Shown here piece after piece: positions 1 to 63,413 of a DNA stretch of 64,000 nucleotides. Each line of letters starts with the position of its first letter. The stretch's first letter is position 1. The DNA is from Eledone cirrhosa (taxonomy: Eukaryota). The translations under genes and the position numbers were made by a program. The notes beneath the pieces were generated by a model that was not told the DNA's origin, made no database searches, and saw only the letters and a program-made list of their open reading frames with translations. Where the stretch lies: the NCBI GenBank assembly GCA_964016885.1, contig OZ024758.1:18414001-18478000 (forward strand), read 5' to 3'.

Positions 1-466
1 TTAACCCTAGGTAGGCCCTACAGGACGTGGGTGTCTCAACCTCACATTCGTAGACAATGTTACTAGAGAGGCATTTGTCGGATAGAGGGAAATTCAACCC
101 GATTCCTACAATTACAGTTAGTACTAGGTACAGGGTTGCACGTATTCCTACGACTAGGTAATTTAGTTAAATTTGAAGCAGTGATGTTACGTGCAAAGTT
201 AGGAGTCGTAGAGTAAGACATTTTAATGGTATTTCTATTAAAAATGTTATATATTTATTCGCTGGGGGGAAAGGCTTCAAAATCTTAGCTAATGGTGTGG
301 CCACCTCCATATTATATGGTTGGTTATACCATATAATACGTCGGGATCTATTTTTCCTAGGTCTATTCTCATACTCAATATATGCTACATTATCGATAAA
401 TCCACTCCGAGCAAGAGCTTCATTGTAATATGTGGAATGGTCGGTGAAAATGTGCTCGTTTGTGGA
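1..466 (-). pseudogene. Penelope-like retroelement ORF fragment (thumb-linker-GIY-YIG endonuclease), probably Naiad clade; 5'-truncated, 2 frameshifts, runs off the window
   Basis: Manual minus-strand translation: STNEHIFTDHSTYYNEALARSGF...KNRSRRIIWYNQPYNMEV...FPPANK / NIFNRNTIKMSYSTTPNFARNI...CNCRNRVE / FPLSDKCLSSNIVYECEVETPTSCRAYLGL. IIWYN-P, SYS--PN, a CxCx5(C)PL-x2-C zinc motif and IVY...YLG (GIY-YIG) are PLE hallmarks. Missing from the ORF track. Confidence 0.88.
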
Positions 467-550
467 TTTTTTTTAGTTTCAGAAGATCCCGTTAAGGGTG
501 AAAGCAGCGATTCTTTGCTTAAACTTTAATCTGTTATTTTAATAAATAAT
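467..550 (+). mobile_element. Family A pLTR-like segment, inverted relative to the PLE ORF, ending in (TA)n
   Basis: Abuts the truncated 5' end of the ORF; near-identical sequence at 20353-20430 and the tail only at 18877-18900. Confidence 0.75.
475..525 (+). ncRNA. Type I hammerhead-like motif, family A (CAGAAGA core)
   Basis: AGTTT-CAGAAGA-T.CCC gttaa GGG.T-GAA-AGCAG cgattct TTGCT-T-AAACT: stems I, II and III all pair. Confidence 0.65.
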
Positions 551-3500
551 TTATATATATATATATATATATATATATGCAGACATGCATACACACATAA
601 TGCTCCAGCATTTTTAGGAATCAGCAATCTATGTTAATCAGAGAAGAGATCGAAGCACGCATTCAATCTCAGGGTATAATCAAGACGTACATTCAAAGAT
701 TGCGACTCAAAATTTATCGTACGAATATGACGAGATTTAACTAAAGAATTGCTCACATTATTTGCTACTCATTAAAACGTATTACCGGCAAGAAAGAATT
801 TCACATATTCAGCTATTTCGCTTTTGTTATATGTTTATTTTACCACGCATGCCTTGCCGAACACAGTGGCTAATTGCTTGCACGGTCTCAGCATTTTGCT
901 TGATATATACTAAGATAATTACCGACCATCACGATAAGAGAAGATGCTTATCCAAGTATATCGTGCAATGTGCTTAACCCTGAACGTCATGCATATAAAG
1001 CAAAGCACTTAAATATAGTTTCGTATACGAAATGTTTATTGTAATTCGTAATTATGCTTATTTAAACACATTAACTAGAGATCTCCTAAAACAGATTCAG
1101 TGGTGTAAATTTAAAGCGAAGTTGATTGTGAGTTGTAAAGTTCGACGTCACTTAAATAACTTCCGTTAGTTCTGTGTACGATTTATAACCGTATATTTTG
1201 TCAAGGTTTTGTTGTATCCATCACATATATTGGGTTTTGTTCTTTAAATTGAAACAGTTTTCCAGCAGGTACAAAGTGTATATTAAGATTAAAAGAGAGT
1301 TTTTCTTGCTAGGTTTAGATTGCCAACATATAGTGAATACAACCATTTGCCAAACAAATTCAGGGAACATATAGTAAAGCATTTAGAACTCATTAATCGC
1401 ATATGGAAAGAAAGATTCAGTGGACACAACCTATGGTCTAATGACACATAATGCACATAAAGAGAGATTGATTACAATTTATAGTACAGCAAATATCGGT
1501 CAACGTACAGCAGACATGAATATATTGCGAAATACTACACCCGCAAAAACACTTAAAAGCTACTTGTATATTATTAGACAATGATACACTGAATACAACT
1601 AAGAATAGAAATAATTTTATTTAAATTACAACGGATATATTAATAGCGATTCAAGCAGAATTAATTTTTGATTGAAGAGATTTAGGTGATATAACTTATA
1701 GATATGTGATATTCAATAAAACAATTTACATTTAATTGAAATGTCCACAAGCTATACGGTATTTTACTGTTTTGATGAAATTCGCGATAATGTTTGGAAA
1801 TAAAGAATTTTACTATATTTGGTATTCACCAGGATTTTCAGGAACGGACAGCAATAAAAGTCAATGTTTGTTCCAGTATTTAAATCCTGTATGTTAGCTT
1901 ATTCGAACATTCAAATGAAGAATTATTTTCAGTCGTAGGTTAATATGTTGCTTTATATACTTAAGGTTTTAAAAACATGATTTATAAATGACAAAAAGAG
2001 AAAAAATGAAGAAATGGAAAGAGAATGAGGTAAGTGTGAGGAGTGGTGGTGCGGAATCTATGCCTTTGGACAGAATACGTCAACTATGCCACCGGAAACA
2101 ACCAGTGACCTCCACTGTATTCAGCTATTTAACATTGCTCAGCTGCTTCGCCAATCGGGATAAGCTCGTTCTAACTTGAAAGACAGCCATCCTGAGACCG
2201 AATACACTAATTTTTTAAAGGTGATCGGTATAAAAGTGACTCGATTAAACAATGAACGGTATTCAGTCTTCTTCCCCCTCTTCTAACTAACAGGCGCCAG
2301 GGTTTTGTAGCCAAATCGGTGAGATTGATAGCGGATAATGAGCTTTTAGCTCTATTATTTTTCAAGGAGGACCAGATGTTCCCTGCTAATTATATTCTAT
2401 TTTCATTTGTTTGATTTTGTTTTTTCCTGGTGTTCTACAGAACAATATTCGATGCTTTCCTAAATCTAATCAATTTGAAAATCCATGTGAGCTTTTGTAG
2501 CTACACGTTTTAAACACAGAAAGTATTTTTGTGCATATCATGCTTATCAGGGTACATGATTCTAATGTCTGTACATCCTCGGTAACCTAGGAGATATTTT
2601 GTTTGTCAATGTTTTCTTTCCTCTTAAAGAGATGTTTCCACATTATTATTTCATCTGCTACAAACTTGAACGTTCGAGGCATTTTATTTGATGCACGTTG
2701 TTACTGTTAAATGATGTTTCCAGTTGGTATGAGGAGTGTTTGTCATATTAAATGAAAATCATATGATAATAATAGAGTGGTTCTCTAAGAGATATTGATC
2801 CTGCTCATTATTTTCTTTATATCTTTACCGCTTGTCTATCTCTCTGTGACTGTAAATATTCTAGGGTGTACAGTTTATGTGATGGGATAGGTATTAACAT
2901 GTATATAAAGTGATATGTTTGTGTTTATTTCGTAACGTTCTATGTAGCAGTTTATTGTTTACTGTGTCAATCTTCGAGCATAATATGCAGGCACAATACC
3001 GAATAACTATGTTGCAAATCAACAAAATAATTTCCTAGAATAGAATTACGAAATCGGAAACAGTCTCGCTTTGTCTCTTGTACCTACACACAAAGGAAAG
3101 CAGTAAATATTTAAAATTAAATCAAGTCTCGCGGCAAGTTCCTGACACAAATTACCGATTCTTGTGGGCCATAGTAAATTCAAGTGTCAACCCATAATTT
3201 GATACCGATATAAAAAATGTGCTTGGGCGATCTGTTGCCAGAGGAACAGTGTTGTACGTCTAGCAGTATTTTAAACATACCACTGATCTTCCGAATGCTA
3301 TTCAGTTAAGTCCGAGAATTAACTAGGTAACGACAAATAATAACATGGTTTAATACGTGGCACTGGAATCAATGTAAATAACATGGTGAATGGTCTTCTT
3401 ATAAATCACCTCATAATTCCTGACGATACATACAGCAACAGTAAATCACGTGAACCACTTGATTTATAGTTTCTTTCATTATGTGTTTTGCTATGTTGTG

Positions 3501-4638: not shown

Positions 4639-4819
4639 GGACCATAACGCAACATAGTACTCAATACTTAGTGTAGTCGAGTCCAGAAATAGCCGTTGAA
4701 ACGGCTTAAGCTCTGGCGTCGGGGTCCTACTTTTTCCTATTTTCCACTCTACTACACTAAGTATTGAGTACTCTGGTGCGTAATGGTCCATCTGGATCCT
4801 TACCGCAATTCCTTCGTTA
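4639..4819 (+). mobile_element. Family C unit with inverted 5' part, ends CCTTCGTTA-(TA)n
   Basis: 4639-4680 is the reverse complement of about 4748-4790; the family recurs at 8.3, 11.0, 19.2, 25.3, 37.0-37.7 and 61.4 kb. Confidence 0.8.
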
Positions 4820-6613: not shown

Positions 6614-7922
6614 TGTAAGATCTATATACTTACAATAAAGCGTTTGTTTTATTTCATAATTATCTTCGTGTGTAAATTGAAAATATGGAAATTATTTTAA
6701 AATTTAAATCATTTTACATAGATATGATGATAATTATTATAATCAAATTTGTCTAGTTAGTTTCTTTATAATTTCCAGTAATCACGGATTTGGAGTCATT
6801 CAATGAACAAAACATACTGATAACGATGAAAATATTTATTTATTTTACTACATATATATGTAAATATTTAGATATTTTCCAGTATTTTGCAAAGATGTTT
6901 TTTTAAGCTGAATTTAATAACTAATATATATTTGTCTATGTATGTATTTAATAATGACGTGAACGAAAATTGATAAAATTGACAGTAAACAAACTTAATG
7001 ACAAATAGACTCTTATTCATGTAGATATTTATATCACACCACCGAATATTAGTTTAAGCATAGAAATATGTTGCTTCCTTAAATACTACTTCATAGTCTA
7101 TGTGATATGATACATTTTACTACGTATAATCGCCTCATAGTTATTGTAAATGACATTGTTTTTATGCCACTATTACAAAGTAGGATTTGTGATTTTCTCT
7201 CAACTTGTGCCATATCATTACAATGTGTTAGTAGTAGTGCAAATTTAGGCCAACATTTAAAAAAAAATATATGAAACTTGGAAATGGGCTAAAATCACAG
7301 AAAACAACTTATTTTGATCCAAAAATTAAAATTAAATACTTGCATACATGCATGTTTGAACGTTCCAATACGGCTATTGTGCGTTTATATAGATGTATGT
7401 GCCTGTATTTGTGTATGAATGTGAATGCTTATAAATACTTGCATGTATCTATCTATATGCTCGGCTAACAGAAACCGATTTCAGATAGAACATAACACCA
7501 CGCTGTTCGTACTGCACTCTTTGTTGTTTTTGTTTTTAGCGTTTTACTTCTCTCTCTCTATCTATCTATCTATATATATATATATAGAGAGAGAGAGAGT
7601 TTGTCGATCTCGGATTTACAGAAACCTAGCGTGGATGTTGTATGTTATATGTGATCTATATTATGTGCTATACGTGATGCGTTATGTATTGCATTCGATG
7701 TCCACTTGATTGTCCAGGTCAGTGAAAATCTTTTGTTGAGTTCAGTTTTTTCGTTGCTAAGGCAGTCGGCTAGACTGTCGGTCGCTATATTTGATTTGCA
7801 AAGCTGTCTAAACGTATTGTTATAACTCTGGGGTATTATTCTCCATCGAGTACTAAGCTGCATTCCGAATCTTCATTCGTTAGCTTGGTCGCAGCCAAAA
7901 GCTTCGTTAATGCTGTACTAAA

Positions 7923-7966
<44 letters not shown>

Positions 7967-8032
7967 GCGTGTGAGTGTATGTGTGTGTGTGTATATGTGT
8001 GTGTGTGCGTGTGAGTGAGTGTTTGTGTGAGT

Positions 8033-8234
8033 GTATCTCGGGTTCAATCGAGTGTAACCACAGTACGTAAGGTACACAATACATACCAGAGTATACATAT
8101 TTAATATAGAAATGGCTCCTTCGGGAGTAGAATAGTATCATTCAAAGGAAATCCTCAGCAAATCACTGATAAAGGGCCTTCCTGATGATTTCCTTCGAAC
8201 GAAACAGTCCTAGTCCTGTAGAAGCCATTTCTAT

Positions 8235-8282: not shown

Positions 8283-8285
<3 letters not shown>

Positions 8286-8476
8286 CGAAGGAAATGTGGT
8301 AAGGAACCAGGTGGACCATAACGCACCAAAGTACTCAATACTTAGGGTGGTAGAGTGGGTAATAGGAACAAGTAAGACCCCGACGGCTTAGCTCAAGCCG
8401 TTTCGACAGCTAATTCTGGACAGAATTAGCCGTCGAAACGGCTTGAGCTCAGCCGTCGGAGTCTTACTTGTTCCTA
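8283..8476. mobile_element. Family C fold-back pair between two (TA)n tracts
   Basis: Axis near 8419-8420 (AATTCTG-GA-CAGAATT); the plus arm carries GAA-ACGGCT tgagctc AGCCGT-C. Confidence 0.8.
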
Positions 8477-8604: not shown

Positions 8605-8785
8605 ACAATATATTAATAAATGGAAACTATATTTATAAAACCATATTTATTTTATTATATATATTTCAAGGGCAACCAAGGACAATTATGGTGCGCTTTC
8701 ATCAGATAAAATACAGATTTGTTTTATAAATAAATGTTGACAAACCCTGAAAAAGACAACCTTAACGGTTGAGGCTTCCTGGATA
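8605..8785 (-). mobile_element. Family B unit
   Basis: Close to the reverse complement of about 48930-49110. Confidence 0.8.
8648..8713 (-). ncRNA. Hammerhead motif, family B
   Basis: TATTTTAT-CTGATGA-AAG c GCA CCA..TGG t TGC c CTT-GAA-ATATATAT-A-ATAAAATA: 8-bp stem I, intact core, palindromic stem III. Confidence 0.85.
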
Positions 8786-8794
8786 TAAATATAT

Positions 8795-9670: not shown

Positions 9671-9750
<80 letters not shown>

Positions 9751-9752
9751 GG

Positions 9753-9803
9753 AGCTTCTATAGGACTAGTACTGTTTCATTCAGATGAAATCTTCAGGAA
9801 GCT
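9753..9803 (-). ncRNA. Hammerhead motif, family D (minus arm)
   Basis: AGCTTC-CTGAAGA-T.TTC atct GAA.T-GAA-ACAG..CTAT-A-GAAGCT. Confidence 0.72.
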
Positions 9804-9850
9804 TCCTGAAGATATCATCTGAATGAAACAGTACTAGTCCTGTAGAAGCT
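9800..9850 (+). ncRNA. Hammerhead motif, family D (plus arm)
   Basis: AGCTTC-CTGAAGA-TATCATCTGAAT-GAA-ACAG tactagtc CTGT-A-GAAGCT. Confidence 0.78.
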
Positions 9851-9935
9851 CCTTCTATAAAATAAAACAATATTACTCTGCCATGTACTGAGTACCTTAC
9901 GTACTGTGGTTATCCCCGACTCAACCCGGGACCTA

Positions 9936-11020: not shown

Positions 11021-11128
11021 GGAAAATGTCCAGGCACCCGACGACTATTTCTGGACTCTACTACCCAAAGTATCGAGTACACTGTTGCGTCATAATCCAC
11101 CTAGTTCCTTACCACACTTCCTTCGTTA
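11021..11128 (+). mobile_element. Family C fragment with inverted 5' part
   Basis: CTATTTCTGGAC-TCTACTACCC...CCTTCGTTA(TA)n. Confidence 0.7.
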
Positions 11129-18040: not shown

Positions 18041-18898
18041 CTATCTCTCTCGCTCACACACACGCACAAACCCTTTCACACACACCATTTACTCTCACTA
18101 TTTCACACAAGCTAAAATTGTGTTTGAAGCCCGTCGCTATGACACCATTAGACTTTAAATGACCATACCTCTCCTTCATTTAATTATTTAGAAACATTAC
18201 AAAATTCCATTTTTAAAGAATTTCTAACTCTAAATGGATAGGAATATATGCAGATATCTGAAGCTGCACATTATTCAATTGAACTGACATTCTTATTATT
18301 GGCATTATGACAGTCTTATGTCCTTCCCAACATTACCAGGTGAAATATGATCTGTTCAATAATAAAATATATTCATGGAGAACATATTGTGTCAAAGACA
18401 AATCGTCTAGTCAAACAATTTAGTGCAGATGTACCAACGAGAGAGGTCAAATTTTAACACCAATATTTAGTGCATATGGCTGTTTAGGAGATTTAATATA
18501 GCTGTGTTTTATTTATTCAAAAGGAACCGATGATCTATGCTTAGTTTTGGAAATGTTGTTGTTCAATTTTATCTATCTATTCCAGTGACAGATACATGGA
18601 GGTAAATAATCATTGAAAATCACTTTTCTTTTCGCATTTTTTCTTGTTCAATTTTTTATAGTGTTTGTAATATTTTTTATTATAGTTATGAAATATAAAT
18701 AAGACAGTGTATAAATGTTATCTCGTAGCTCCAATGAATGTCACCATCACACTTCATTTCCGATGAATTGCAATATTTGGATTTATTTTGTTGGCAATAT
18801 TTTCTTGCCAAAAATACCAACAAGCATATTTTCATCAATTGCATTATACATTAAAACTGAGTTCGCCCTAAAATGATAAACTTTAATCTGTTATTTTA

Positions 18899-18930
<32 letters not shown>

Positions 18931-18934
18931 ATCA

Positions 18935-19105
18935 ATGAAATTAATAAATGGAAACTATATTTATGAAAGCATATTTATTCTATTATATATATTTCAAAGG
19001 TACCAAAACTATGGTACGTCCTCATCAGATAAAATACAAAGTTTGTTTTATAAATATTGACATTTCCAGGAATGAGACGTTAACGGTTCAAGTTTTACCT
19101 GGGTA
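18935..19105 (-). mobile_element. Family B unit
   Basis: TAATAAATGGAAACTATATTTAT...TAACGGTTCAAG, between (TA)n tracts. Confidence 0.8.
18976..19036 (-). ncRNA. Hammerhead motif, family B
   Basis: TATTTTAT-CTGATGA-GGA c GTACCA tagttt TGGTAC c TTT-GAA-ATATATAT-A-ATAGAATA. Confidence 0.82.
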
Positions 19106-19114
19106 GTCATATAT

Positions 19115-19423
<309 letters not shown>

Positions 19424-20100: not shown

Positions 20101-20110
20101 TATATATATA

Positions 20111-20352
20111 AGCAAAAGGGATATTCAATTTGTTGGTAATTTAACAAATATGAATGTTTATAACTTATTCAGAGCACTCAACAAGTTTTCTGGAGTATAA
20201 TATTCAATGATATTAAATAAATAAATAAATGGAAACTATTTTTATAAGGCACCAAAACTATGGTACGCCCTCATCAGATAAAATACGAAGTTTGTTTTAT
20301 AAATATTGACATAACCAAGGAAGGATACCTTAACAGTTCAAGTTTTTCCTGA
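20111..20352 (-). mobile_element. Family B unit with the long 3' extension; HHR partly deleted (GAAA/stem III lost)
   Basis: GGTACGCCC-TCATCAG-ATAAAATA retained; the 3' extension matches 63330-63416, 48593-48665 and 11187-11230. Confidence 0.75.
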
Positions 20353-20359
20353 CTTTTTT

Positions 20360-20410
20360 AGTTTCAGAAGATCCCGTTAAGGGTGAAAGTAGCGATTCTT
20401 TGCTTAAACT
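20360..20410 (+). ncRNA. Hammerhead-like motif, family A (second copy)
   Basis: Identical to 475-525 except a C>T change giving a U.G wobble in stem III. Confidence 0.65.
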
Positions 20411-20891
20411 TTAATCTGTTATTTTAATAAATATATATAATATAACTGACAATGTAAGAGATATGATCACAGATATAAGTATACATGGGTTCCAATTTCA
20501 AAGGATCAAGTTAACTAGTTTGAAGAAAATGCTAACTTAATACAACATGGTTTGCTTGACTCGATTTAAAGTAATAAATCAATAAAAGTAACAAAACTAT
20601 ATCGGGCAAAATCCTTTGATACCCAGACAGGCTTAAATCTGTTTCACAAGAATTATTAAGTGAAAGTCACTATTTCTGTGCTCTTCAGTAGATATCCAAC
20701 AATTAGCAGACCTTTCACTTCTAAGGATCTAAGAAGACTGAAAAATATGCTGATATAAAAGCACATGTTACAGCGCCTAGCGCGTCTCACATACTCATGC
20801 CGCTAGAAGTAGCAGCTGGGTTTATGAGACTAAAGTTAGGTCTACATATTGGAGCCGAGAATATAATTTATTGAGTTTCTAACTCAATGTA

Positions 20892-21629: not shown

Positions 21630-21837
21630 ATATTTAATATAGAAAAAGGCTGCTAGAGGACTGGGACTGTTTCATTCGGGAGACATTTTCAGGGCTTCCT
21701 GATGATTTCTCCCGAATTAAACAGTTCTAATCCCGTAGAAGCATTTTCTACATTAAATATTAAATATTTATACTCTGCTTTGTATTGAGTACCTTACTTA
21801 CTGTGGTTACCCCCGATTGTACCCCGGATAAACTCAT
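21630..21837. mobile_element. Family D fold-back pair with HHR at 21694-21742 (+, G12 mutated)
   Basis: GCTTC-CTGATGA-T.TTC tccc GAA.T-TAAAC...GTA-GAAGC; the minus arm retains GAAAC. Confidence 0.75.
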
Positions 21838-25340: not shown

Positions 25341-25459
25341 TAGGAAAAATTATAGCCCCTGATGTTAAACTTTTTCCTATTACCCACTCTACTAACCTAA
25401 GTATTGAGATACGCTGGTGCGTTATGGCCCATCTGGTTCGTTTCCACACTCCTTCGTTA
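25341..25459 (+). mobile_element. Family C 3' fragment with a short inverted head
   Basis: TTCCTATTACCCACTCTACT...CCTTCGTTA(TA)n. Confidence 0.72.
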
Positions 25460-30289: not shown

Positions 30290-30349
<60 letters not shown>

Positions 30350-30532
30350 ACAGGGATAAAAGACGATTATTAAGAAGAACATTTTTTTTCCCTTTTTATT
30401 CATTTCTCTCTTTTTTTCTGGGTTAGAAAATGATTAAAACGAAATATTTTACTTCGTGTGAAGTGTTAAGGTATTAGTTTATTTATTTATTAATTAACAA
30501 TGACATTTATTTATATATGTATATATTTAATA

Positions 30533-30580
30533 ATTGTCTATTACCGGTTTCAGCATGTTTATGCATTATCAAATGATAAT
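30533..30580 (-). ncRNA. Hammerhead motif, family E, U3-A8 core
   Basis: ATTATCAT-TTGATAA-T.GCAT aaac ATGC.T-GAA-ACCGGT-A-ATAGACAAT. Confidence 0.68.
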
Positions 30581-30870
30581 AATATGTATTGGTGTAGAAT
30601 GGTGGTGGTGGACAGGCATCCACCATTTGCCTCCATCATGGATCAACTAAGCACTCTTTCTATATTAAGACATTATGATCTGCTTATTTTCATTAACTAT
30701 GTCTGTAAATAACATTATTTTTTCTTTCACATTGCTTTATTATGCTCCACATTACGACCTTTTTTTTCTTTTTTCTTTTCACTTCATAAACCTTGTTTGT
30801 AAATAACATTATTCTTTCTGCACCATTTCTTTAACATGTCCCACACCATCATTTTACACCAATACATATT

Positions 30871-30918
30871 ATTATCATTTGATAATGCAAACAAATGCTG
30901 AAACCGGTAGTAGACAAT
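30871..30918 (+). ncRNA. Hammerhead motif, family E, U3-A8 core
   Basis: ATTATCAT-TTGATAA-T.GCA aacaaa TGC.T-GAA-ACCGGT-A-GTAGACAAT. Confidence 0.65.
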
Positions 30919-31402
30919 TATTAAATATATAAATAAATAAATAAATGCCATTGTTAATTAATAAATAATTCAACTAATACCTTAACACTTCACACGAAGT
31001 AAAATATTTCGTTTTAATCATTTTCTAACCCAGAAAAAAGAGAGAAATAAATAAAAAAGGAAAACAATATATTTTTCTTCCAAATAAACGTCTTTTTCTC
31101 CCTGTTTTCATGTATATATATATGAAAACAGAACAAACGATGCATACAAACAAATAAAATAATCCCAGTCACTGAAGAGGTCACAGAATGTGACAATGTA
31201 TAAACAACCATCTGGTTGTGGAACCAACCAACCAACCGAAAATTTATAAATTCCTAAATTTATAAATTTATTATGATAAATTGAAGTGAAAGCAACTGGT
31301 GCGTGCGTTTCTTATTGGCAACATGATCCTCCCAAAGTATAATAATATCGGTTTCAACACACGTTTTCAGATAAAGAATCTTGCTTAACAAATTCAGAAA
31401 CG

Positions 31403-32662: not shown

Positions 32663-32707
<45 letters not shown>

Positions 32708-32784
32708 AATGTGAAAATTAAAACCCGAAGAGGGCTCGATAAGGATAATCTGTTATGTTGATAAATTAACACACACACACACAC

Positions 32785-32843
<59 letters not shown>

Positions 32844-33017
32844 CAATGGCATATAGTTTAATCCAAAAACAAAATGCCAAATCTCACCAACTGATTTGTA
32901 TAATTAATTATGTATGTCAGCATAGCTTTGTTTAATGCCACCAAGTCTATGACTGCAGTTTTCTGCAACAATTAAGCACAAGTAAGCGCCAAAATAGTGT
33001 CATTATTTCCAGATGAG

Positions 33018-33398
33018 GGTGGTCGATTGGCAGTATCGGTAGAGAGTCGGACGCCATGCTTTCCAGCATAGTTACGTCCCTTTACGATCTGAGTTCAAAT
33101 CCCGCCGAGGTTGACTTTCCCTTTCATCCTTACGTGGTCGATAAAATAAAGTACCAGTAATGCACTGGTTAATTCCTGGCCTTGTGCCTAAAGTAGAAAC
33201 ATTTATTTCCAGTTGATTGGCAGTTTCAGTAGAGGGTCGGCCGCCATGCTCTCCAGAATAGTTACGTCTCTTTACGATCTGAATTCAAATCCCGCTGAGG
33301 TTGACATTGCCTTTCATCCTTACGAGGTCGATAAAATAAAGTAACAGTAATGCACTGGGTAATTTCTGGCCTTGTGCCTAAAGTAGAAACAATTATTT
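33018..33398 (+). mobile_element. Head-to-tail SINE dimer
   Basis: Two copies of about 190 bp, each preceded by ATTTCCAG. Confidence 0.9.
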
Positions 33399-34084
33399 CC
33401 ATTAATTAATATTCAATGCTATTCACTGCAGCATCATATCATCGGTCATCGGCATGTTTATATTGATAATAGTTTACATTGACAATGGTACACACTGGAT
33501 TGGTTAAAACATAATTGAACTTTAGTTGGTTTGCATATGTTTTAAGGGAACACATTGTATTTTCTATGAATGGGCTACACGGAGAGTAAACATGAAAATA
33601 AAGATATCGTTGCTACTTTTGAAAACAAAACGTAACCTATGATACAGAGGGTATTTAGATACAAATCAACCATCTCCAAGAAAGAAACCAATATCAAATT
33701 TAAACATGTCATCGTGTGTAAGAACAGAAAAAAAGACTACAACATACAATGTAGAGAAACGTGGAGAAAGCAGACGTATAACTATTAAAACAATTATTAT
33801 TACGATCTACTAGAAAATATTCTAAAATTTTAACAATCTTTCCTGATTTTACACTACGCATCTACGTATATATATATATATATTGAGAGAGAGAGAGTGA
33901 GGCAGGGAGAGAGTGAGAGAGAGAGAAAGAGGGAGAGATTGGGTGTTTAGGTAGATTCTTGGTTTACAGTAGTATACATTAATTTGGACCCTCAGCCAGC
34001 CATCGGTGAAACAGTCGTAACTGTGCATATTCAGTAAAATCCTTAATGTGAAATCTCGTTTTTTTCTTAATACACATATACATA

Positions 34085-35774: not shown

Positions 35775-36908
35775 CATAGTATCCTAGAAACATGTATAAT
35801 AAAATAAATATGATGCTATAGTGATATTTTTCATGTATTACTATATATATATATATATATATATAATTATGTATGTATATATATATATATATATAATTAT
35901 GTATGTATATATATATATATATATATATACATATATATGTATATATACATATATATGTGTGTGTGTGTGTGTGTGTTTATATGCTTGGGAGTCAACTCTT
36001 AATGGAAACTATTCAGTAATGTTGATAGTATTGACTCTGCATGATTGTAACGTTTATCAATTGTACCAGAAATAAATATATTTAAACCGTCTGTTATATT
36101 ATGGTTAAAAGAATGGAACATATCAAATATCATCGTTATCGAAATTCCCAAGGTTACAGCTATTCAAACTTCCTCAGTAAACAGGCAACCATCAAGTACT
36201 GATTACATTTATCTGATATCATGAAGAATTCATTATTTATTTTACTGTTTTCAATTCTCTTATGCTGGTTGTAAAGTATTTCATCTTCGAAGTATTTGAC
36301 ATTCCATTAAAGCCACATTGTGAAATGTTTTCTATATCATTACCCTGTGAGAGAAATACCACAGCTTTCTCTTCTAGAAATTCTTATTCATTTAGCTTTT
36401 GAATTTGTCAAGATCCCATGTTTAGTTTTCACTTTCTTACACGTTCTCTCGATTAACTTTCTTAGATATGCAAATATTTCTGTTGAGAATTAAACAAGTT
36501 ATCAAAAGCAGCTAAAACTAAACAACTTAACCCTGATTTATAAGATGTTGGAATTGTGAGTTAAATATTTGTTAGTGAATTATCTATTTTATATAAATAC
36601 TCTTTAACGTCTAGCGGAATATCAGAATATGTATGGAGCCATTACATATGTCACGCTTGATGCATATATATATATATATATATATATGAATATAAAAACG
36701 AAACAACGCAGGAGTACAAGTTACAAATGGTATTAGGTTCACAGTACGGCCATACTGATAGTTTTCTATTTACCATTTCTTAGAGGGTTCTAAACCCCAC
36801 TATCGGGCTGACATTTCTTTAGCAAAAAAAATAGGGCGAAAGATTTTTTTTTTTTTTCACGCTCACTCGCTGTTCAAAACAAACATATACACATATACAC
36901 ATATACAA

Positions 36909-37747
<839 letters not shown>

Positions 37748-43765: not shown

Positions 43766-44861
43766 TTATAGTGTGTATTGTTGTTTATTTCTTCTCGATA
43801 GAACGTCACAAAAATATGCGGTTCCATGGAAAGCCTCTTTGTAGTGGAATTTATCAAAATAATTTACAATTGAACTTAATAATAAACGGTAGGAGGGCAT
43901 GCTGCAGAACTTATCGCTCCTATATTCTAACGATTCTATAAGGGTGAGATGGATATCTCATGGACTGATTATGAAGGAGGTATGCTAGACATGTGAAATC
44001 TTGCATGCGCTAATTTCAAATCTTCCTATTAATAACCACATTGTTTTCTACCAGAGTCTATGTTGAAAAACAAACTTCATTTGGTCATTCCATGCATAAT
44101 TCAGCTAATGAACCTTTTAGCTAAACCTCGTTCAAATCACCTAGATAAAACACCTCTCTACATAAATCTGTTATTTTCAACGTAATCGAAACTTTGCCAA
44201 ATATAAGACGTGCAGATGCAACTATTTCCTGTCTTTAAAAGTAAATCTTGAGTTAAATGTTCATAATTTTCTATTCATTAAATATTAACAGGCGTTTATC
44301 CTTTTTCAAAATGATAGTTGACGTACGTAATAATCGCCACTGTCTATATTGCGGCTGTTTTTGTTTATAACAATCGTAGTTCCCAGATATATCAATACAC
44401 TTTCGTTGTGAAGAGCTAAAGGGGTCGAATGCTTTCCAGGCTAACATATACGATACGAATCTTATATCCATGACCGTGAATTTGTACTTTAACTCCCGCG
44501 TAATATATATATAGAGAGAGAGAGATAGAGATAGAGAGATAGAGAGAGATGTGAGAAAACCCACAGACCCTCCATCTCAATTCTACTTTTGAAAAGCAGA
44601 AGAACTGTGAAACCGGTAAAGGAACTAAATAAATATATTTAAAAAAAAATACTCTAGTTGCATTTTCGATTTCACCTTTTTTCCTTATACTTTCACTCAT
44701 GTAGGACACCTCCTTTTTTTTTCAATTCGTAAAAAAACCTCACTTTCTAATAATATATATATATATGAAGTATTTCCTTAGGAAATGTAAATGAAAAGAG
44801 AGTGCTCTATGTAGACTACAGAGCGTTTTAGTTATGTAATAAACAGCATAAGATAATTATT

Positions 44862-44921
44862 ACATTTACCAATGGTTTCTTGAAGACATATATTTATGTC
44901 TGTCTTCATTCATCAGAATAT
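44862..44921 (-). ncRNA. Hammerhead motif, family F (minus arm)
   Basis: ATATT-CTGATGA-A.TGAAGACA..TGTCTTCA.A-GAA-ACC att GGT-A-AATGT. Confidence 0.8.
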
Positions 44922-44937
44922 TATTATCATAAATAAG

Positions 44938-44995
44938 TTTTCTGATGAATGAAGGCAGACATAAATATCTGTCTTCAAGAAACCATTGGTAAATG
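44938..44995 (+). ncRNA. Hammerhead motif, family F (plus arm)
   Basis: TT-CTGATGA-A.TGAAGGCAGA cataaata TCTGTCTTCA.A-GAA-ACC att GGT-A-AA. Confidence 0.75.
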
Positions 44996-45044
44996 AAATA
45001 ATTATCTGATGCTGTTTATTATATATATATATATATATATATAT

Positions 45045-47216: not shown

Positions 47217-47304
<88 letters not shown>

Positions 47305-47345
47305 CGATATTAAACAAATGGAAACTATATTTATAAAACCCTATT

Positions 47346-47411
47346 TATTTCATTATACATATTTCAGTGATACCATATTAAAAATATGGCATGCCTTCGT
47401 CAGATAAAATA
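47346..47411 (-). ncRNA. Hammerhead motif, family B (minus arm)
   Basis: Mirror of 47566-47631 with one stem II change. Confidence 0.8.
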
Positions 47412-47565
47412 CAATATATAAACAGTTTTATAAATAATTTTGACGTACTATGTTATAAGCGACCGTTATATTAGGAAGCTGTCTGGATATACAAACAGCT
47501 TCCTAATATAGCGGTCGCTTATAATATGGTACGTCAACATTATTTATAAAACTGTTTATATATTG

Positions 47566-47631
47566 TATTTTATCTGACGAAGGCATGCCATATTTTTAAT
47601 ATGGTATCCCTGAAATATGTATAATGAAATA
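47566..47631 (+). ncRNA. Hammerhead motif, family B (plus arm)
   Basis: TATTTTAT-CTGACGA-AGG c ATGCCATATT ttt AATATGGTAT c CCT-GAA-ATATGTAT-A-ATGAAATA. Confidence 0.85.
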
Positions 47632-47751
47632 AATATGGTTTTATGAATATAGTTTCCATTTGTTTAATATCGTATATCTAATAAAGCAAGATATCTCTCT
47701 ATATATATATAAGCAAATATATATATCTATATCTATCTATCTATATATGCA

Positions 47752-48593: not shown

Positions 48594-49110
48594 GCAGAGG
48601 TTATATTTAATTTGTTGGGATTCAACAAGCTTAAAAATGTTATAACTGATATAAAGCACTAACGGTTCTCCTCACTATCACTATGCATAATCTTGTTTTT
48701 CTCTCTCTTTCTTCTTCTCTATTTCTCTTTCTCTTTTCTTCTCTCTCCCTTTCACTATTCTTTCTCTCTCCCTTTCAATATTTGTTGTCTCTCCTTTTTA
48801 TATCTCCTGTTCACTACTTTCTTCCAACATTTTAATTTAAATAAACCGTTGTTTTTTCATTTTTTTTTACACTCATTTGCATACTCACTCATAACTTTGA
48901 ATCACCCTCAATAAAATATTATTTACACTATCCAGCGAGCCTCAACCGTTAAGGTGGTCTTTAGGCGCGTATGTCAATATTTGTTTATAAAAAAAATGTG
49001 TATTTTATCTGATGAAAGCGCACCATAATCTGCCTTGGTTGCCCTTGAAATATATATAATAAAATAATTATGGTTTTATAAATATATTTTCCTTTTATTA
49101 ATATATTGTA
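48593..49110 (+). mobile_element. Family B unit with longer upstream sequence and an inverted 3'-tail piece (48593-48665)
   Basis: Homology to 8605-8785 and 20111-20200; flanked by (TA)n. Confidence 0.72.
49001..49066 (+). ncRNA. Hammerhead motif, family B
   Basis: TATTTTAT-CTGATGA-AAGCGCACCA taatctgcct TGGTTGCCCTT-GAA-ATATATAT-A-ATAAAATA. Confidence 0.85.
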
Positions 49111-55056: not shown

Positions 55057-55717
55057 ACCCCTTTTTCTTATGTCCTCTATCAACATTAACATTGAATGCA
55101 ATTTTAACATTTAATTATTTTTTTACATTTATAACATTATTCTTTCTTCGGGCCTAATTTTGTTTGAAGACTTTCTCCATTATTTCACTATATCAGCTTT
55201 TCCTTCTTTTGACTAAATCTTATACACGCATACCTAAGCCATTATGCATCACACTGTCTAACTATATTCCTTTCTTCTTCAATCTTATAATTTACATCCA
55301 CCACTTATACCGAAATCACTATTTCGGTTGTCTTTCTATGTAATATGCATCTAGGCTCAAACATTTTATACATTTTCCACAACACATGTGAATATAATAT
55401 AAACCTGCACACATATGTGAATGTCAATCTATATTTTTATTGTACATATATGTATTACCATAAGTATGTAAGATATCGTCATGCTATCTGATTGATGGTC
55501 TCATAGATTATCTAATTCCATTGTTTAATAAAGTATTTAGAGATGCAATACAAATCTGTGCATTATGAAAGTGTTACAGTAGAATGGTATGATCATTGTG
55601 TTGTGCTGCATCGTAAAATATAGGAAGTAAAATATACGATGCTTTTACATGTTGCAGCGATTTAATGTGTTCGACTGAGGTCCTCGTCAGAGGAGGGAGA
55701 CAAAACGTCAAAAATGA

Positions 55718-56291
55718 AATAATGGTTTTTGATATGGGCACAAGGCCAACAGATTTGGCGGAGGGGAAAGTCGATTCCATCAACCCCAGCGCATTACTGG
55801 TGTTTTATTTTATCGAACACGTAAGGATGAAAGGCAAATCTAACCTCGACACGATGTGAACTCAGCCTATAAATGACCGTAACTTTATGTCACAAAGAAT
55901 GATCTCCAACGCTTTACCGTTTGTGCGAATCCATCAAATAATTGTTTCTACTTTTGACACAATGTTAGCAATTACCACAGTGCATTACTGGTACTTTATT
56001 TTATCAACCCCGTTAGGATAATAGGTAAAGTTAACCTCGGCGGGATTTGAACTAAGACCGTAAACGGCTGTAACACTATACCACAAAGCATGAAGTCCAA
56101 GTCTTTACCGATTCTCCCAATTCATCAAATAATTGTTTCTACTTTTTACGCAAGGCTAACAATTATCCCAGTGCATTACTGGTACTTTTTTTATCAACCC
56201 CATAAGGATGAAAGACAAAGTTAACCTCGGTGGGATTTGAACTAAGACCATAAAGCATGATTCCAACGCTTTACTGATTCTGCCAATCCAC
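55718..56291 (-). mobile_element. Head-to-tail SINE trimer
   Basis: Three copies joined by CATCAAATAATTGTTTCTAC. Confidence 0.88.
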
Positions 56292-61402: not shown

Positions 61403-61480
61403 TAACAAAGGAATTGTGGGAAGGAACCAGATGGAACATAACGCAGCAGAGTACTCAATATATAGGGTAGTAGAGTGCGA
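61403..61480 (-). mobile_element. Family C 3' fragment
   Basis: TAACAAAGGAATTGTGGGAAGGAACCAGATGG..GTACTCAATA..GGGTAGTAGAGTG. Confidence 0.72.
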
Positions 61481-61511
<31 letters not shown>

Positions 61512-61705
61512 TTTAGTACAGCATTGACGAGGGTTTAGAATACAGCCGAGCTAGCGTATATGCATAATCGGTCTGTAGCTTGAGCACTCAGATGAGGAAA
61601 GACCCCAGAGTAATAACATTACGTTCAGGCAGCTTAGCAAATCAGATATAGCGGTCGGCAGTCCAGCCGCATCACTAGAGCAACGAAAATACAGGACCCA
61701 GGAAA

Positions 61706-61763
<58 letters not shown>

Positions 61764-61771
<8 letters not shown>

Positions 61772-61880
61772 TAAATGGAAAATATCTGTATAACAACATG
61801 TTTATTTCATAATTATTTTGTTATAAAGATATTTTCTATTTATTAATATTTTTAATATTAATATTGTAATACTCCAGATA
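61764..61880. mobile_element. Short family B fold-back (3' part only, no HHR)
   Basis: AATATTAATAAATGGAAAATATC..GATATTTTCTATTTATTAATATT followed by ATACTCCAGA. Confidence 0.6.
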
Positions 61881-62894: not shown

Positions 62895-63007
62895 TAAATA
62901 TATATAAATATATACATATATAAAAATATATATATATATACATATATAAATATATATATATATTTACGATATTAAATAAATGGAAACTATATTTATAAAA
63001 ACATATT

Positions 63008-63073
63008 TATTTCATTATATATATTTCAGGGATATCATATTAAAAATATGGTTTGCCTTCATCAGACAAACTA
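63008..63073 (-). ncRNA. Hammerhead motif, family B (minus arm)
   Basis: Mirror of 63221-63286. Confidence 0.75.
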
Positions 63074-63220
63074 CGATATAAACAGTCTTATAAATAGATA
63101 GATTTGACATACCTTACGACTTCAACATCCATTTAAAGTTGATTTGGAATTTGAAGTTGATTTGGAATTTGAAGTTGTAAGGTATGTCAAATCTTTCTAT
63201 TTATAAGACTGTTTATATTG

Positions 63221-63286
63221 TATTTTGTCTGATGAAGGCATACCATATTTTTAATATGATATCCCTGAAATATATATAATGAAATA
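63221..63286 (+). ncRNA. Hammerhead motif, family B (plus arm)
   Basis: TATTTTGT-CTGATGA-AGG c ATACCATATT ttt AATATGATAT c CCT-GAA-ATATATAT-A-ATGAAATA. Confidence 0.82.
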
Positions 63287-63413
63287 AATATGTTTTTATA
63301 AATATAGTTTCCATTTATTTAATATCGTAAATATACTCCAAATACTTGTTGAGTGCTTTTATAATCAGTTATAAATATTTACTCGTTGTAACACAACAAT
63401 TTAAATAAAACTT

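What the first reader, a model, noticed from the sequence alone, without database searches (positions are those of the whole stretch)
1..550. Naiad-like PLE endonuclease fragment joined to an inverted hammerhead unit: candidate driver of the system
Seen: a frameshifted GIY-YIG-containing ORF on the minus strand, absent from the ORF track, whose truncated 5' end (466) directly abuts a plus-strand HHR segment ending in (TA)n. Established: 5' truncation with an inverted pLTR is a typical PLE insertion structure. The CxCx5C linker motif marks the Naiad/Chlamys group, and some Naiads encode selenoproteins. Inference: family A is the pLTR of this autonomous element. No in-frame UGA is visible in this fragment.
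Basis: partly seen in the sequence, partly recalled or inferred. Interest (0 to 1): 0.72.

Follow-up and report, generated by a model that had tools for sequence, protein, structure and literature searches.

The report
Hydra-type Penelope copy, altered hammerhead
This is a broken, cut-short copy of a very abundant jumping gene of the known Hydra group of Penelope-like elements (not a Naiad, no selenocysteine), capped by a mirror-image piece of its own end repeat whose hammerhead-shaped RNA carries an A for a normally fixed U in 99% of copies and so likely cuts poorly or not at all.

Summary
Window 1-467 (minus strand) is a frameshifted piece of a Penelope-like ORF, joined at 465-467 to an inverted copy of the element's own 3' end (465-547) that runs into (TA)n. 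The insertion continues left of the window and ends in the same repeat. The clade call is wrong. Sister copies encode a 709-aa protein with the RT first and the GIY-YIG last, plus RWR, DKT and CxCx5C: these are Hydra-clade marks in Craig et al. 2021, whereas Naiads have an N-terminal endonuclease. TGA stands at 2 of 692 cysteine-column codons, so there is no selenoprotein. The hammerhead unit is this family's pLTR end. The family is not the driver of the window's other hammerhead repeats: two of them lead back to their own Hydra-type ORFs. The family has at least 19,964 ends and young intact ORFs. Two side results: the hammerhead core is U4A in 99% of ends (cutting untested; noted before in this scan), and inverted insertions carry one long and one short end in 34 of 35 classifiable pairs. 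Verdict: a new variant of a known kind, modest interest.

The parts
1..467 (-). ORF remnant of a Hydra-type PLE (aa 442-601 of the 709-aa family protein): end of the RT region, linker and start of the GIY-YIG endonuclease. The insertion continues about 1,480 nt left of the window through the rest of the ORF, the 3' UTR, the pLTR end and an 87-nt tail to (TA)n.
89..116 (-). CxCx5C linker; broken here by a 1-nt insertion, third Cys codon reads TTC
   Evidence: motif conserved in 113-114 of 115 aligned homologues
5..58 (-). GIY-YIG signature (IVY...YLG)
   Evidence: Y585, Y598 and G600 conserved in 114 of 115; homologue P0101 passes Pfam GIY-YIG at 599-639
465..467 (.). inversion junction; 3-nt overlap shared by the ORF piece and the pLTR piece, no (TA)n at the joint
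465..547 (+). inverted 3' end of the element's pLTR, short (no-tail) form
   Evidence: 96% to the pLTR end of full-length copy L050; 88% to the insertion's own 3' end
475..525 (+). type I hammerhead-shaped motif, core CAGAAGA (U4A), predicted cleavage triplet CUU at 518-520; the outer part of stem I is cut off in this copy
552..578 (.). (TA)n target microsatellite; its other half lies at the far end of the insertion (L001 1-20)
20350..20434 (+). second pLTR end of the same family, fused directly to an inverted, tailed end of another hammerhead family (20109-20350, minus strand)
18877..18906 (+). last 30 nt of the same pLTR before (TA)n
32676..32766 (.). small remnant: tail piece (minus strand, 89%, E 1e-9) next to a weak pLTR-end match (plus strand, E 0.2)

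Best explanation
Window 1-551 is the 5' half of one decayed, 5'-truncated insertion of an abundant Hydra-type Penelope-like retrotransposon, capped by an inverted copy of the element's own hammerhead-shaped pLTR end and likely made in one event by two target-primed copying steps in a (TA)n tract. SHOWN: the family protein (709 aa) has the RT before the GIY-YIG endonuclease; the unit is about 3.25 kb; copies stop at one of two fixed points 87 nt apart and run into (TA)n; inverted insertions have one end of each kind; and the hammerhead core has A at position 4 in 99% of ends. INFERRED (from Frangieh et al. 2024 on a Poseidon element): the protein, probably as a dimer, nicks both strands of (TA)n and starts reverse transcription inside the RNA at two sites, one per strand. 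Here the strand primed at the tail site was copied about 1.95 kb into the ORF, the strand primed at the pLTR-end site only about 83 nt, and the two were joined through 3 nt of microhomology. INFERRED: the template is uncut RNA, because copies end 27 or 114 nt past the predicted cleavage site, and the U4A hammerhead is likely weak or inactive and dispensable for spreading. The family mobilises its own ends; other hammerhead repeats in the window have their own parents.
For: Domain order and motifs: (RWR37, DKT115, YRDD346, CxCx5C564, IVY/YIG, R609, H613, CxxC..E668, N681..CxH). An AlphaFold model (pLDDT 93.8) has telomerase RT as its best Foldseek hit (3du5, E 4.8e-9). Hydra definition: PMC8557442 section 11 and supplement. 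Intact frames of 712-714 aa in 22 of the 87 best-scoring matches; five full ORFs are 96.5-98.1% identical. Core: 19,964 ends with A4 against 209 with another letter, 90 of them T; 71 of 74 cores in 50 loci have A4 and none has T. Ends: 34 of 35 classifiable outward pairs are tail plus no-tail (41 pairs in 67 loci, 6 unclassifiable; binomial p 1e-9 against 50%). 16 of 20 close neighbours among the first 100 matches on C1 face outward. Other families. Mechanism precedent: PMC11167929: two internal start sites define the tail, both strands are cut and extended, and ribozyme mutants still insert in vitro.
Against: No tree with named reference PLEs was built, so the clade rests on motifs compared by eye with the paper's text and alignment. 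The core is not canonical, whereas the paper calls canonical hammerheads universal in Hydra. The unit (3.25 kb) is longer than the paper's 'generally <3 kb'. The inverted piece is less diverged than the insertion's own 3' end (1 of 82 against 7 of 79, Fisher p 0.03), which one event does not predict. In vitro, the Poseidon enzyme showed no difference in start site between strands, so the one-of-each rule is not explained by that work. One pair (L121) is tail plus tail. Loci were chosen by similarity or by a T4 core, not at random. Ribozyme activity was not tested.
Confidence: 0.88

Rival explanations
1. A Naiad/Chlamys element, possibly a selenoprotein.
For: (TA)n targeting and inverted 5' pieces also occur in Naiads, and Naiads are listed for Octopus species (PMC8557442).
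Against: The endonuclease is C-terminal, and only 36 residues precede the RWK-type motif (median of 115 homologues 36, maximum 80). DKT, not DKA. CxCX5C is the Hydra linker. TGA at 2 of 692 Cys-column codons, each a single copy; no codon column has more than 2 TGA.
Confidence: 0.01
2. Two events: a younger short pLTR-end copy landed at, or was converted onto, the 5' end of an older truncated copy.
For: The body differs by 7% from the older-subfamily majority (81 of 1,155), the inverted piece by 1 of 82; own end 7 of 79 (p 0.03). The family clusters in TA-rich spots.
Against: No (TA)n at the junction, although 100 of 110 family ends run into TA by a lenient test. 3-nt microhomology. Both parts carry older-subfamily letters (25 of 34 diagnostic ORF sites; T-run before the core). 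The pair obeys the tail plus no-tail rule. The p value is one unplanned comparison.
Confidence: 0.12
3. This family's protein is the trans-acting driver of all hammerhead repeats in the window.
For: Cross-family fusions exist: window 20109-20434 and L166 each join a tailed end of the second family to a no-tail end of this one inside (TA)n, and L031 joins this family to the third. All three families share end architecture.
Against: The 48920 family continues without a break into its own ORF (about 40% aa identity) in 4 of 18 extended loci (L098, L100, L108, L110; likely also L112). The 8285 family does so in 1 of 30 loci (L150; the palindromic query favoured fold-backs). There is no DNA similarity beyond chance to this element. 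Three further window families were not traced.
Confidence: 0.12
4. The U4A hammerhead still cuts usefully (protein-assisted or as a dimer) and is kept for that.
For: Helices and all other core letters are kept across copies. A U4C variant supports viroid infectivity (PMC3088659). The Poseidon hammerhead cuts only with its protein. PLE hammerheads are weak as monomers (PMC4209133).
Against: Sameness among young copies reflects recent copying, not selection. Copy ends do not map to the cleavage site. The hammerhead fold scores -11.7 against -15.6 kcal/mol for the best fold. CUU is a poor triplet (recalled). The sister family at 48920 keeps CUGAUGA.
Confidence: 0.3

Closest known systems
Hydra clade of C-terminal EN+ Penelope-like elements (Craig et al. 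2021, PMC8557442), e.g. Hydra-1_Obim, Hydra-1_Ajap, Hydra-2_Amil
   Same: Single ORF of about 700 aa, RT then GIY-YIG; RWK-type motif, DKT, CxCX5C linker, CxxC and CxH around E and N, no CCHH; (TA)n targets; type I hammerhead with T between core and stem II near the 3' end.
   Different: A different family from Hydra-1_Obim (N-terminus and hammerhead differ by eye; two peptide motifs of this family were absent from the supplement). Core U4A. Unit 3.25 kb with a 3' UTR of about 1 kb. Clear pLTRs and an 87-nt tail. At least 19,964 ends.
Poseidon_Ac / PAc (Frangieh et al. 2024, PMC11167929)
   Same: Two fixed end points that define a tail, AT-rich targets, a hammerhead upstream of the ends, insertion from uncut RNA.
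   Different: Different clade. The PAc tail is 30-40 nt and its start sites lie inside the ORF; here both lie in the 5' UTR. A strict one-of-each pairing per insertion is not reported in the parts I read.
Naiad / Chlamys (PMC8557442)
   Same: PLE insertion architecture, (TA)n bias.
   Different: N-terminal endonuclease, CxC motif before the RT, DKA, IFD, no canonical hammerhead, selenocysteine in four families: none of these applies here.
Non-LTR retrozymes (bioRxiv 10.64898/2026.07.22.740005, parts 1-2 of 5 read)
   Same: Short hammerhead-bearing repeats derived from PLE pLTRs.
   Different: The short copies here are truncated or folded-back ends of coding elements, not head-to-tail tandem units.

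Membership tests
Hydra clade PLE | single ORF, C-terminal GIY-YIG after the RT | tested here: met
   YRDD at 346, IVY/YIG at 583/598 of 709 aa; fold hit TERT; homologue P0101 GIY-YIG at 599-639
Hydra clade PLE | CxCX5C linker | tested here: met
   C564, C566, C572 in sister copies and in 113-114 of 115 homologues; third Cys lost in the window copy
Hydra clade PLE | RWK present, GxKF/Y absent, DKG changed to DKT | tested here: met
   RWR37 (K in 86, R in 26 of 115), DKT115, no GxKF/Y match in L044
Hydra clade PLE | CCHH absent; CxxC and CxH beside the catalytic E and N | tested here: met
   C662xxC665..E668; N681..C690xH692; one Cys only between IVY and YIG
Hydra clade PLE | no IFD | tested here: met
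   FDI(251) to MG(314) spacing of 63 aa, against about 64 counted by eye in Hydra-1_Obim
Hydra clade PLE | insertion into (TA)n | tested here: met
   100 of 110 ends by a lenient test
Hydra clade PLE | canonical hammerhead near the 3' end | tested here: not met
   The motif is in the expected place with three helices, but the core is CAGAAGA in 99% of ends. Hence filed as a variant, not a plain member.
Hydra clade PLE | groups with Hydra elements in an RT phylogeny | not tested
   No named reference sequences were available as tool input; compared by eye with the supplement alignment only
Naiad/Chlamys | N-terminal GIY-YIG linked to the RT by a CxC domain | tested here: not met
   The ORF starts 36 aa before RWR; the endonuclease is last
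Naiad/Chlamys | DKA motif and IFD | tested here: not met
   DKT; spacing as in Hydra
Naiad selenoproteins | in-frame UGA at conserved cysteines | tested here: not met
   2 of 692 codons at 15 Cys columns; 22 of 87 matches have stop-free full frames
Naiad selenoproteins | SECIS in the 3' UTR | tested here: inconclusive
   No SECIS-specific search was available and the 3' UTR (left of the window) was not scanned; the question is moot without UGA
Hammerhead ribozyme (type I) | self-cleavage | not testable with these tools
   No RNA run was listed; needs an assay

The most novel reading that the evidence does not exclude
A young Hydra-type family spread to at least about 10,000 insertions with a hammerhead that lost a core uridine before the burst. 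Each inverted insertion is built by two obligately different priming events, one at each of two RNA start sites 87 nt apart, on opposite target strands, sometimes using RNAs of two different families. This would be direct genomic evidence for an asymmetric dimer mechanism that does not need ribozyme cutting.
Probability: 0.35. Interest if true: 0.6.

Novelty: new variant of a known kind. Interest (0 to 1): 0.33.

Why it matters
The locus itself is an ordinary dead transposon copy. The family matters a little more. What hammerheads do in Penelope-like elements is stated as unclear in PMC8557442, and a high-copy family with intact ORFs and a fixed core change, beside a sister family with the canonical core, is a ready natural comparison. 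The one-long-one-short rule and the cross-family fusions constrain how the second strand of a PLE insertion is made, a step that PMC11167929 leaves unvalidated. The result also corrects a likely recurring misreading: CxCx5C marks Hydra, not Naiad.

Tried and rejected
Rfam at gathering score over the window: 0 hits. Pfam on the family protein and window pieces: nothing above cut-off; 1 of 15 homologues passed GIY-YIG. PDB by sequence: nothing, singly or as a profile. Minimum-energy folds do not give the hammerhead. A canonical-core (T4) subfamily: rejected, since T is 90 of 20,173 ends against 119 for C plus G, and many T4 cases sit at fold-back joints where the reverse complement supplies the letter. 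The ~190-bp high-copy repeat as pLTR: rejected, no match to the element. Expression: no RNA holder listed, which is no evidence either way. Contigs of four runs laid on L050 showed loose ends at 881 and 970 in 136 and 139 contigs of X1; X1 may be the assembly's own sample, so I do not count it as independent. Shared rare variants between the two ends of one insertion: 2 in 19 pairs against a shuffled mean of 0.21 (28 of 2,000 shuffles reach it), weak only. The first F3 locus with an ORF nearby (L160) was rejected as a link because a long TA run separates the two. Earlier findings near the window and by sequence: none shown. Not in print: searches for U4A hammerheads and for octopus Penelope/hammerhead papers gave no description of this family or core. 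The library lacks most subscription papers and Repbase, and Figures 5, S6 and S7 of PMC3088659, which list core variants, were not visible.

Full report
What is there. The minus strand of 1-467 carries three consecutive frames of one gene: RT-end sequence, a cysteine linker and the start of a GIY-YIG domain. A search of the own genome (3.0 Gb) scored 40 of 2,750 candidates; all cover essentially 1-467, the 39 other than the window at 87-90%. The window's left flank (L001) continues the gene to its stop, then a 3' UTR, a repeat end identical in kind to 465-547, an 87-nt extension and (TA)n. So one unit of about 2.05 kb sits between two TA runs with both 3' ends facing outward. Against intact copy L062 the insertion covers aa 442-709 with five indels and a premature stop: it is dead. 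The host is an animal, probably an octopod; that is my recollection of the repeat landscape and comes from no call.

The family. A 493-aa piece found 83,391 candidates; 22 of the 87 scored have stop-free frames of 712-714 codons (these are the best scorers, so enriched for intact copies). The protein is 709 aa from the first Met. Five full ORFs are 96.5-98.1% identical, and 29 ORF-selected loci differ from the column majority by a median 1.7%. An older subfamily differs at 87 of 2,130 ORF columns, and the window copy sides with it at 25 of 34 sites. The repeat unit is 3,243-3,270 nt in six copies with two same-sense pLTRs. The structure model (pLDDT 93.8) is closest to telomerase RT, as expected of a PLE. 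483 homologues were found; the best 120 listed are 38-57% identical and unnamed.

Clade. Craig et al. 2021 (PMC8557442; I read the abstract, full-text parts 2 and 4 of 10, section 8, passages, and supplement sheets S1 Hydra and S2 plus passages of the protein file and alignment) define Naiad/Chlamys by an N-terminal endonuclease and give CxCX5C, RWK, DKT, loss of CCHH, CxxC/CxH, hammerheads and (TA)n targets as Hydra features. The family has all of the protein features, conserved across 115 aligned sequences (the query plus 114 of the 120 listed homologues; six short, long or partial ones were left out). It is not Hydra-1_Obim (by eye). TGA occurs at 2 of 692 cysteine-column codons. No reference tree was built.

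The hammerhead. The motif has type I geometry like the published Hydra motifs, but position 4 is A: 71 of 74 cores in 50 loci, and genome-wide 19,964 against 209, of which 90 are T. These counts are ends, not insertions, and exact matches only. I found this before consulting earlier notes; four earlier AI reports on this genome say the same and are not independent support. Against a working ribozyme: no Rfam hit, the fold is 3.9 kcal/mol above the minimum, and copies end 27 or 114 nt beyond the predicted cut. For it: helices and other core letters are intact, a U4C variant works in a viroid (PMC3088659, passages and section 8), and PLE hammerheads are weak alone or protein-assisted (PMC4209133 passages; PMC11167929 parts 1-2 of 4).

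How it was made. Ends fall at two points 87 nt apart (59 short, 51 tailed, 1 partial). Pairing each minus end with the next plus end within 5.2 kb in 67 loci gave 41 pairs: 34 tail plus no-tail, 1 tail plus tail, 6 unclassifiable. L039, L042, L119 and L129 were dropped as duplicates, L002-L021 as overlapping others, and 18 of the 67 loci were chosen for a T4 core. Either kind of end can carry the ORF. A one-sided tail is in print qualitatively (PMC8557442 Fig. 2 legend), and PMC11167929 shows for a Poseidon element that the tail is the stretch between two internal reverse-transcription starts and that both target strands are extended. I infer two priming events, one per strand and one per site, joined by microhomology (3 nt at 465-467). 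Both sites lie a few bases before a GCTC..GAGC hairpin, and the second family has like hairpins; this lead came from earlier notes, and I checked only the folds in single copies. One result against a single event at this locus: the inverted piece has 1 difference in 82, the insertion's own end 7 in 79 (p 0.03).

Driver of the system? The window holds several TA-flanked hammerhead-like families. Only 465-547, 20350-20434, 18877-18906 and about 32676-32766 match this element. The eight-locus family of 48920 continues into a separate Hydra-type ORF of about 40% identity in 4 of 18 extended loci, and likely in L112; it keeps CUGAUGA. The nine-locus family of 8285 continues into a third ORF in 1 of 30 loci. 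Three smaller families were not traced. Direct fusions between families exist (window 20109-20434, L166, L031), so occasional cross-family template use is not excluded.

Verdict. Observation confirmed; interpretation partly supported. It is a Hydra-type PLE, a variant by its hammerhead core, and ordinary as a locus. Penelope-like elements are already reported as abundant and recently active in Octopus vulgaris (PMC13282606, passages). Interest 0.33.

Noticed in passing
window 20109-20434; L166:1501-1820; L031:3255-3408: Direct fusions of ends from two different Hydra-type families inside (TA)n. The first two are tail plus no-tail; L031 is tail plus tail. Possible cross-family template switching.
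   Followed up: partly
window 8606-8791, 18940-19101, 20153-20351, 35780-35840, 47299-47680, 48672-49108, 61764-61850, 62964-63379: Second family: pLTR ends with a canonical CUGAUGA core, linked to its own Hydra-type ORF about 1.4 kb upstream (L098, L100, L108, L110).
   Followed up: yes
window 8285-8474, 4681-4817, 11041-11126, 19226-19421, 25365-25457, 36987-37698, 61405-61477; L150: Third family, mostly ~190-bp fold-backs with one tailed arm; in L150 it follows a Hydra-type ORF end and shows a U3-A8-type core with a long stem II (by eye).
   Followed up: partly
window 8028-8234, 9747-9931, 21630-21836; 44839-45019; 30346-31109; 7730-7924 and 61510-61707; 19779: Further TA-flanked fold-back or hammerhead-like repeats with no match to this element; parents not traced.
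   Followed up: no
window, about 20 or more copies, e.g. 33001-33415, 55716-56262: ~190-bp high-copy SINE-like repeat, sometimes in tandem; unrelated to this element.
   Followed up: no
L044 and L098, just past both end points: A GCTC..GAGC or ACTC..GAGT hairpin 4-6 nt after each of the two end sites in two families.
   Followed up: partly
L033:4686-8335 (minus), L038/L039, L030, L156/L157, L160: Other PLE ORFs beside the fetched copies, including a 1,216-codon open frame in L033 and further Hydra-type families.
   Followed up: no
L001:256-538 (left of the window): The pLTR holds an internal direct repeat of about 140 nt (84% alike).
   Followed up: no
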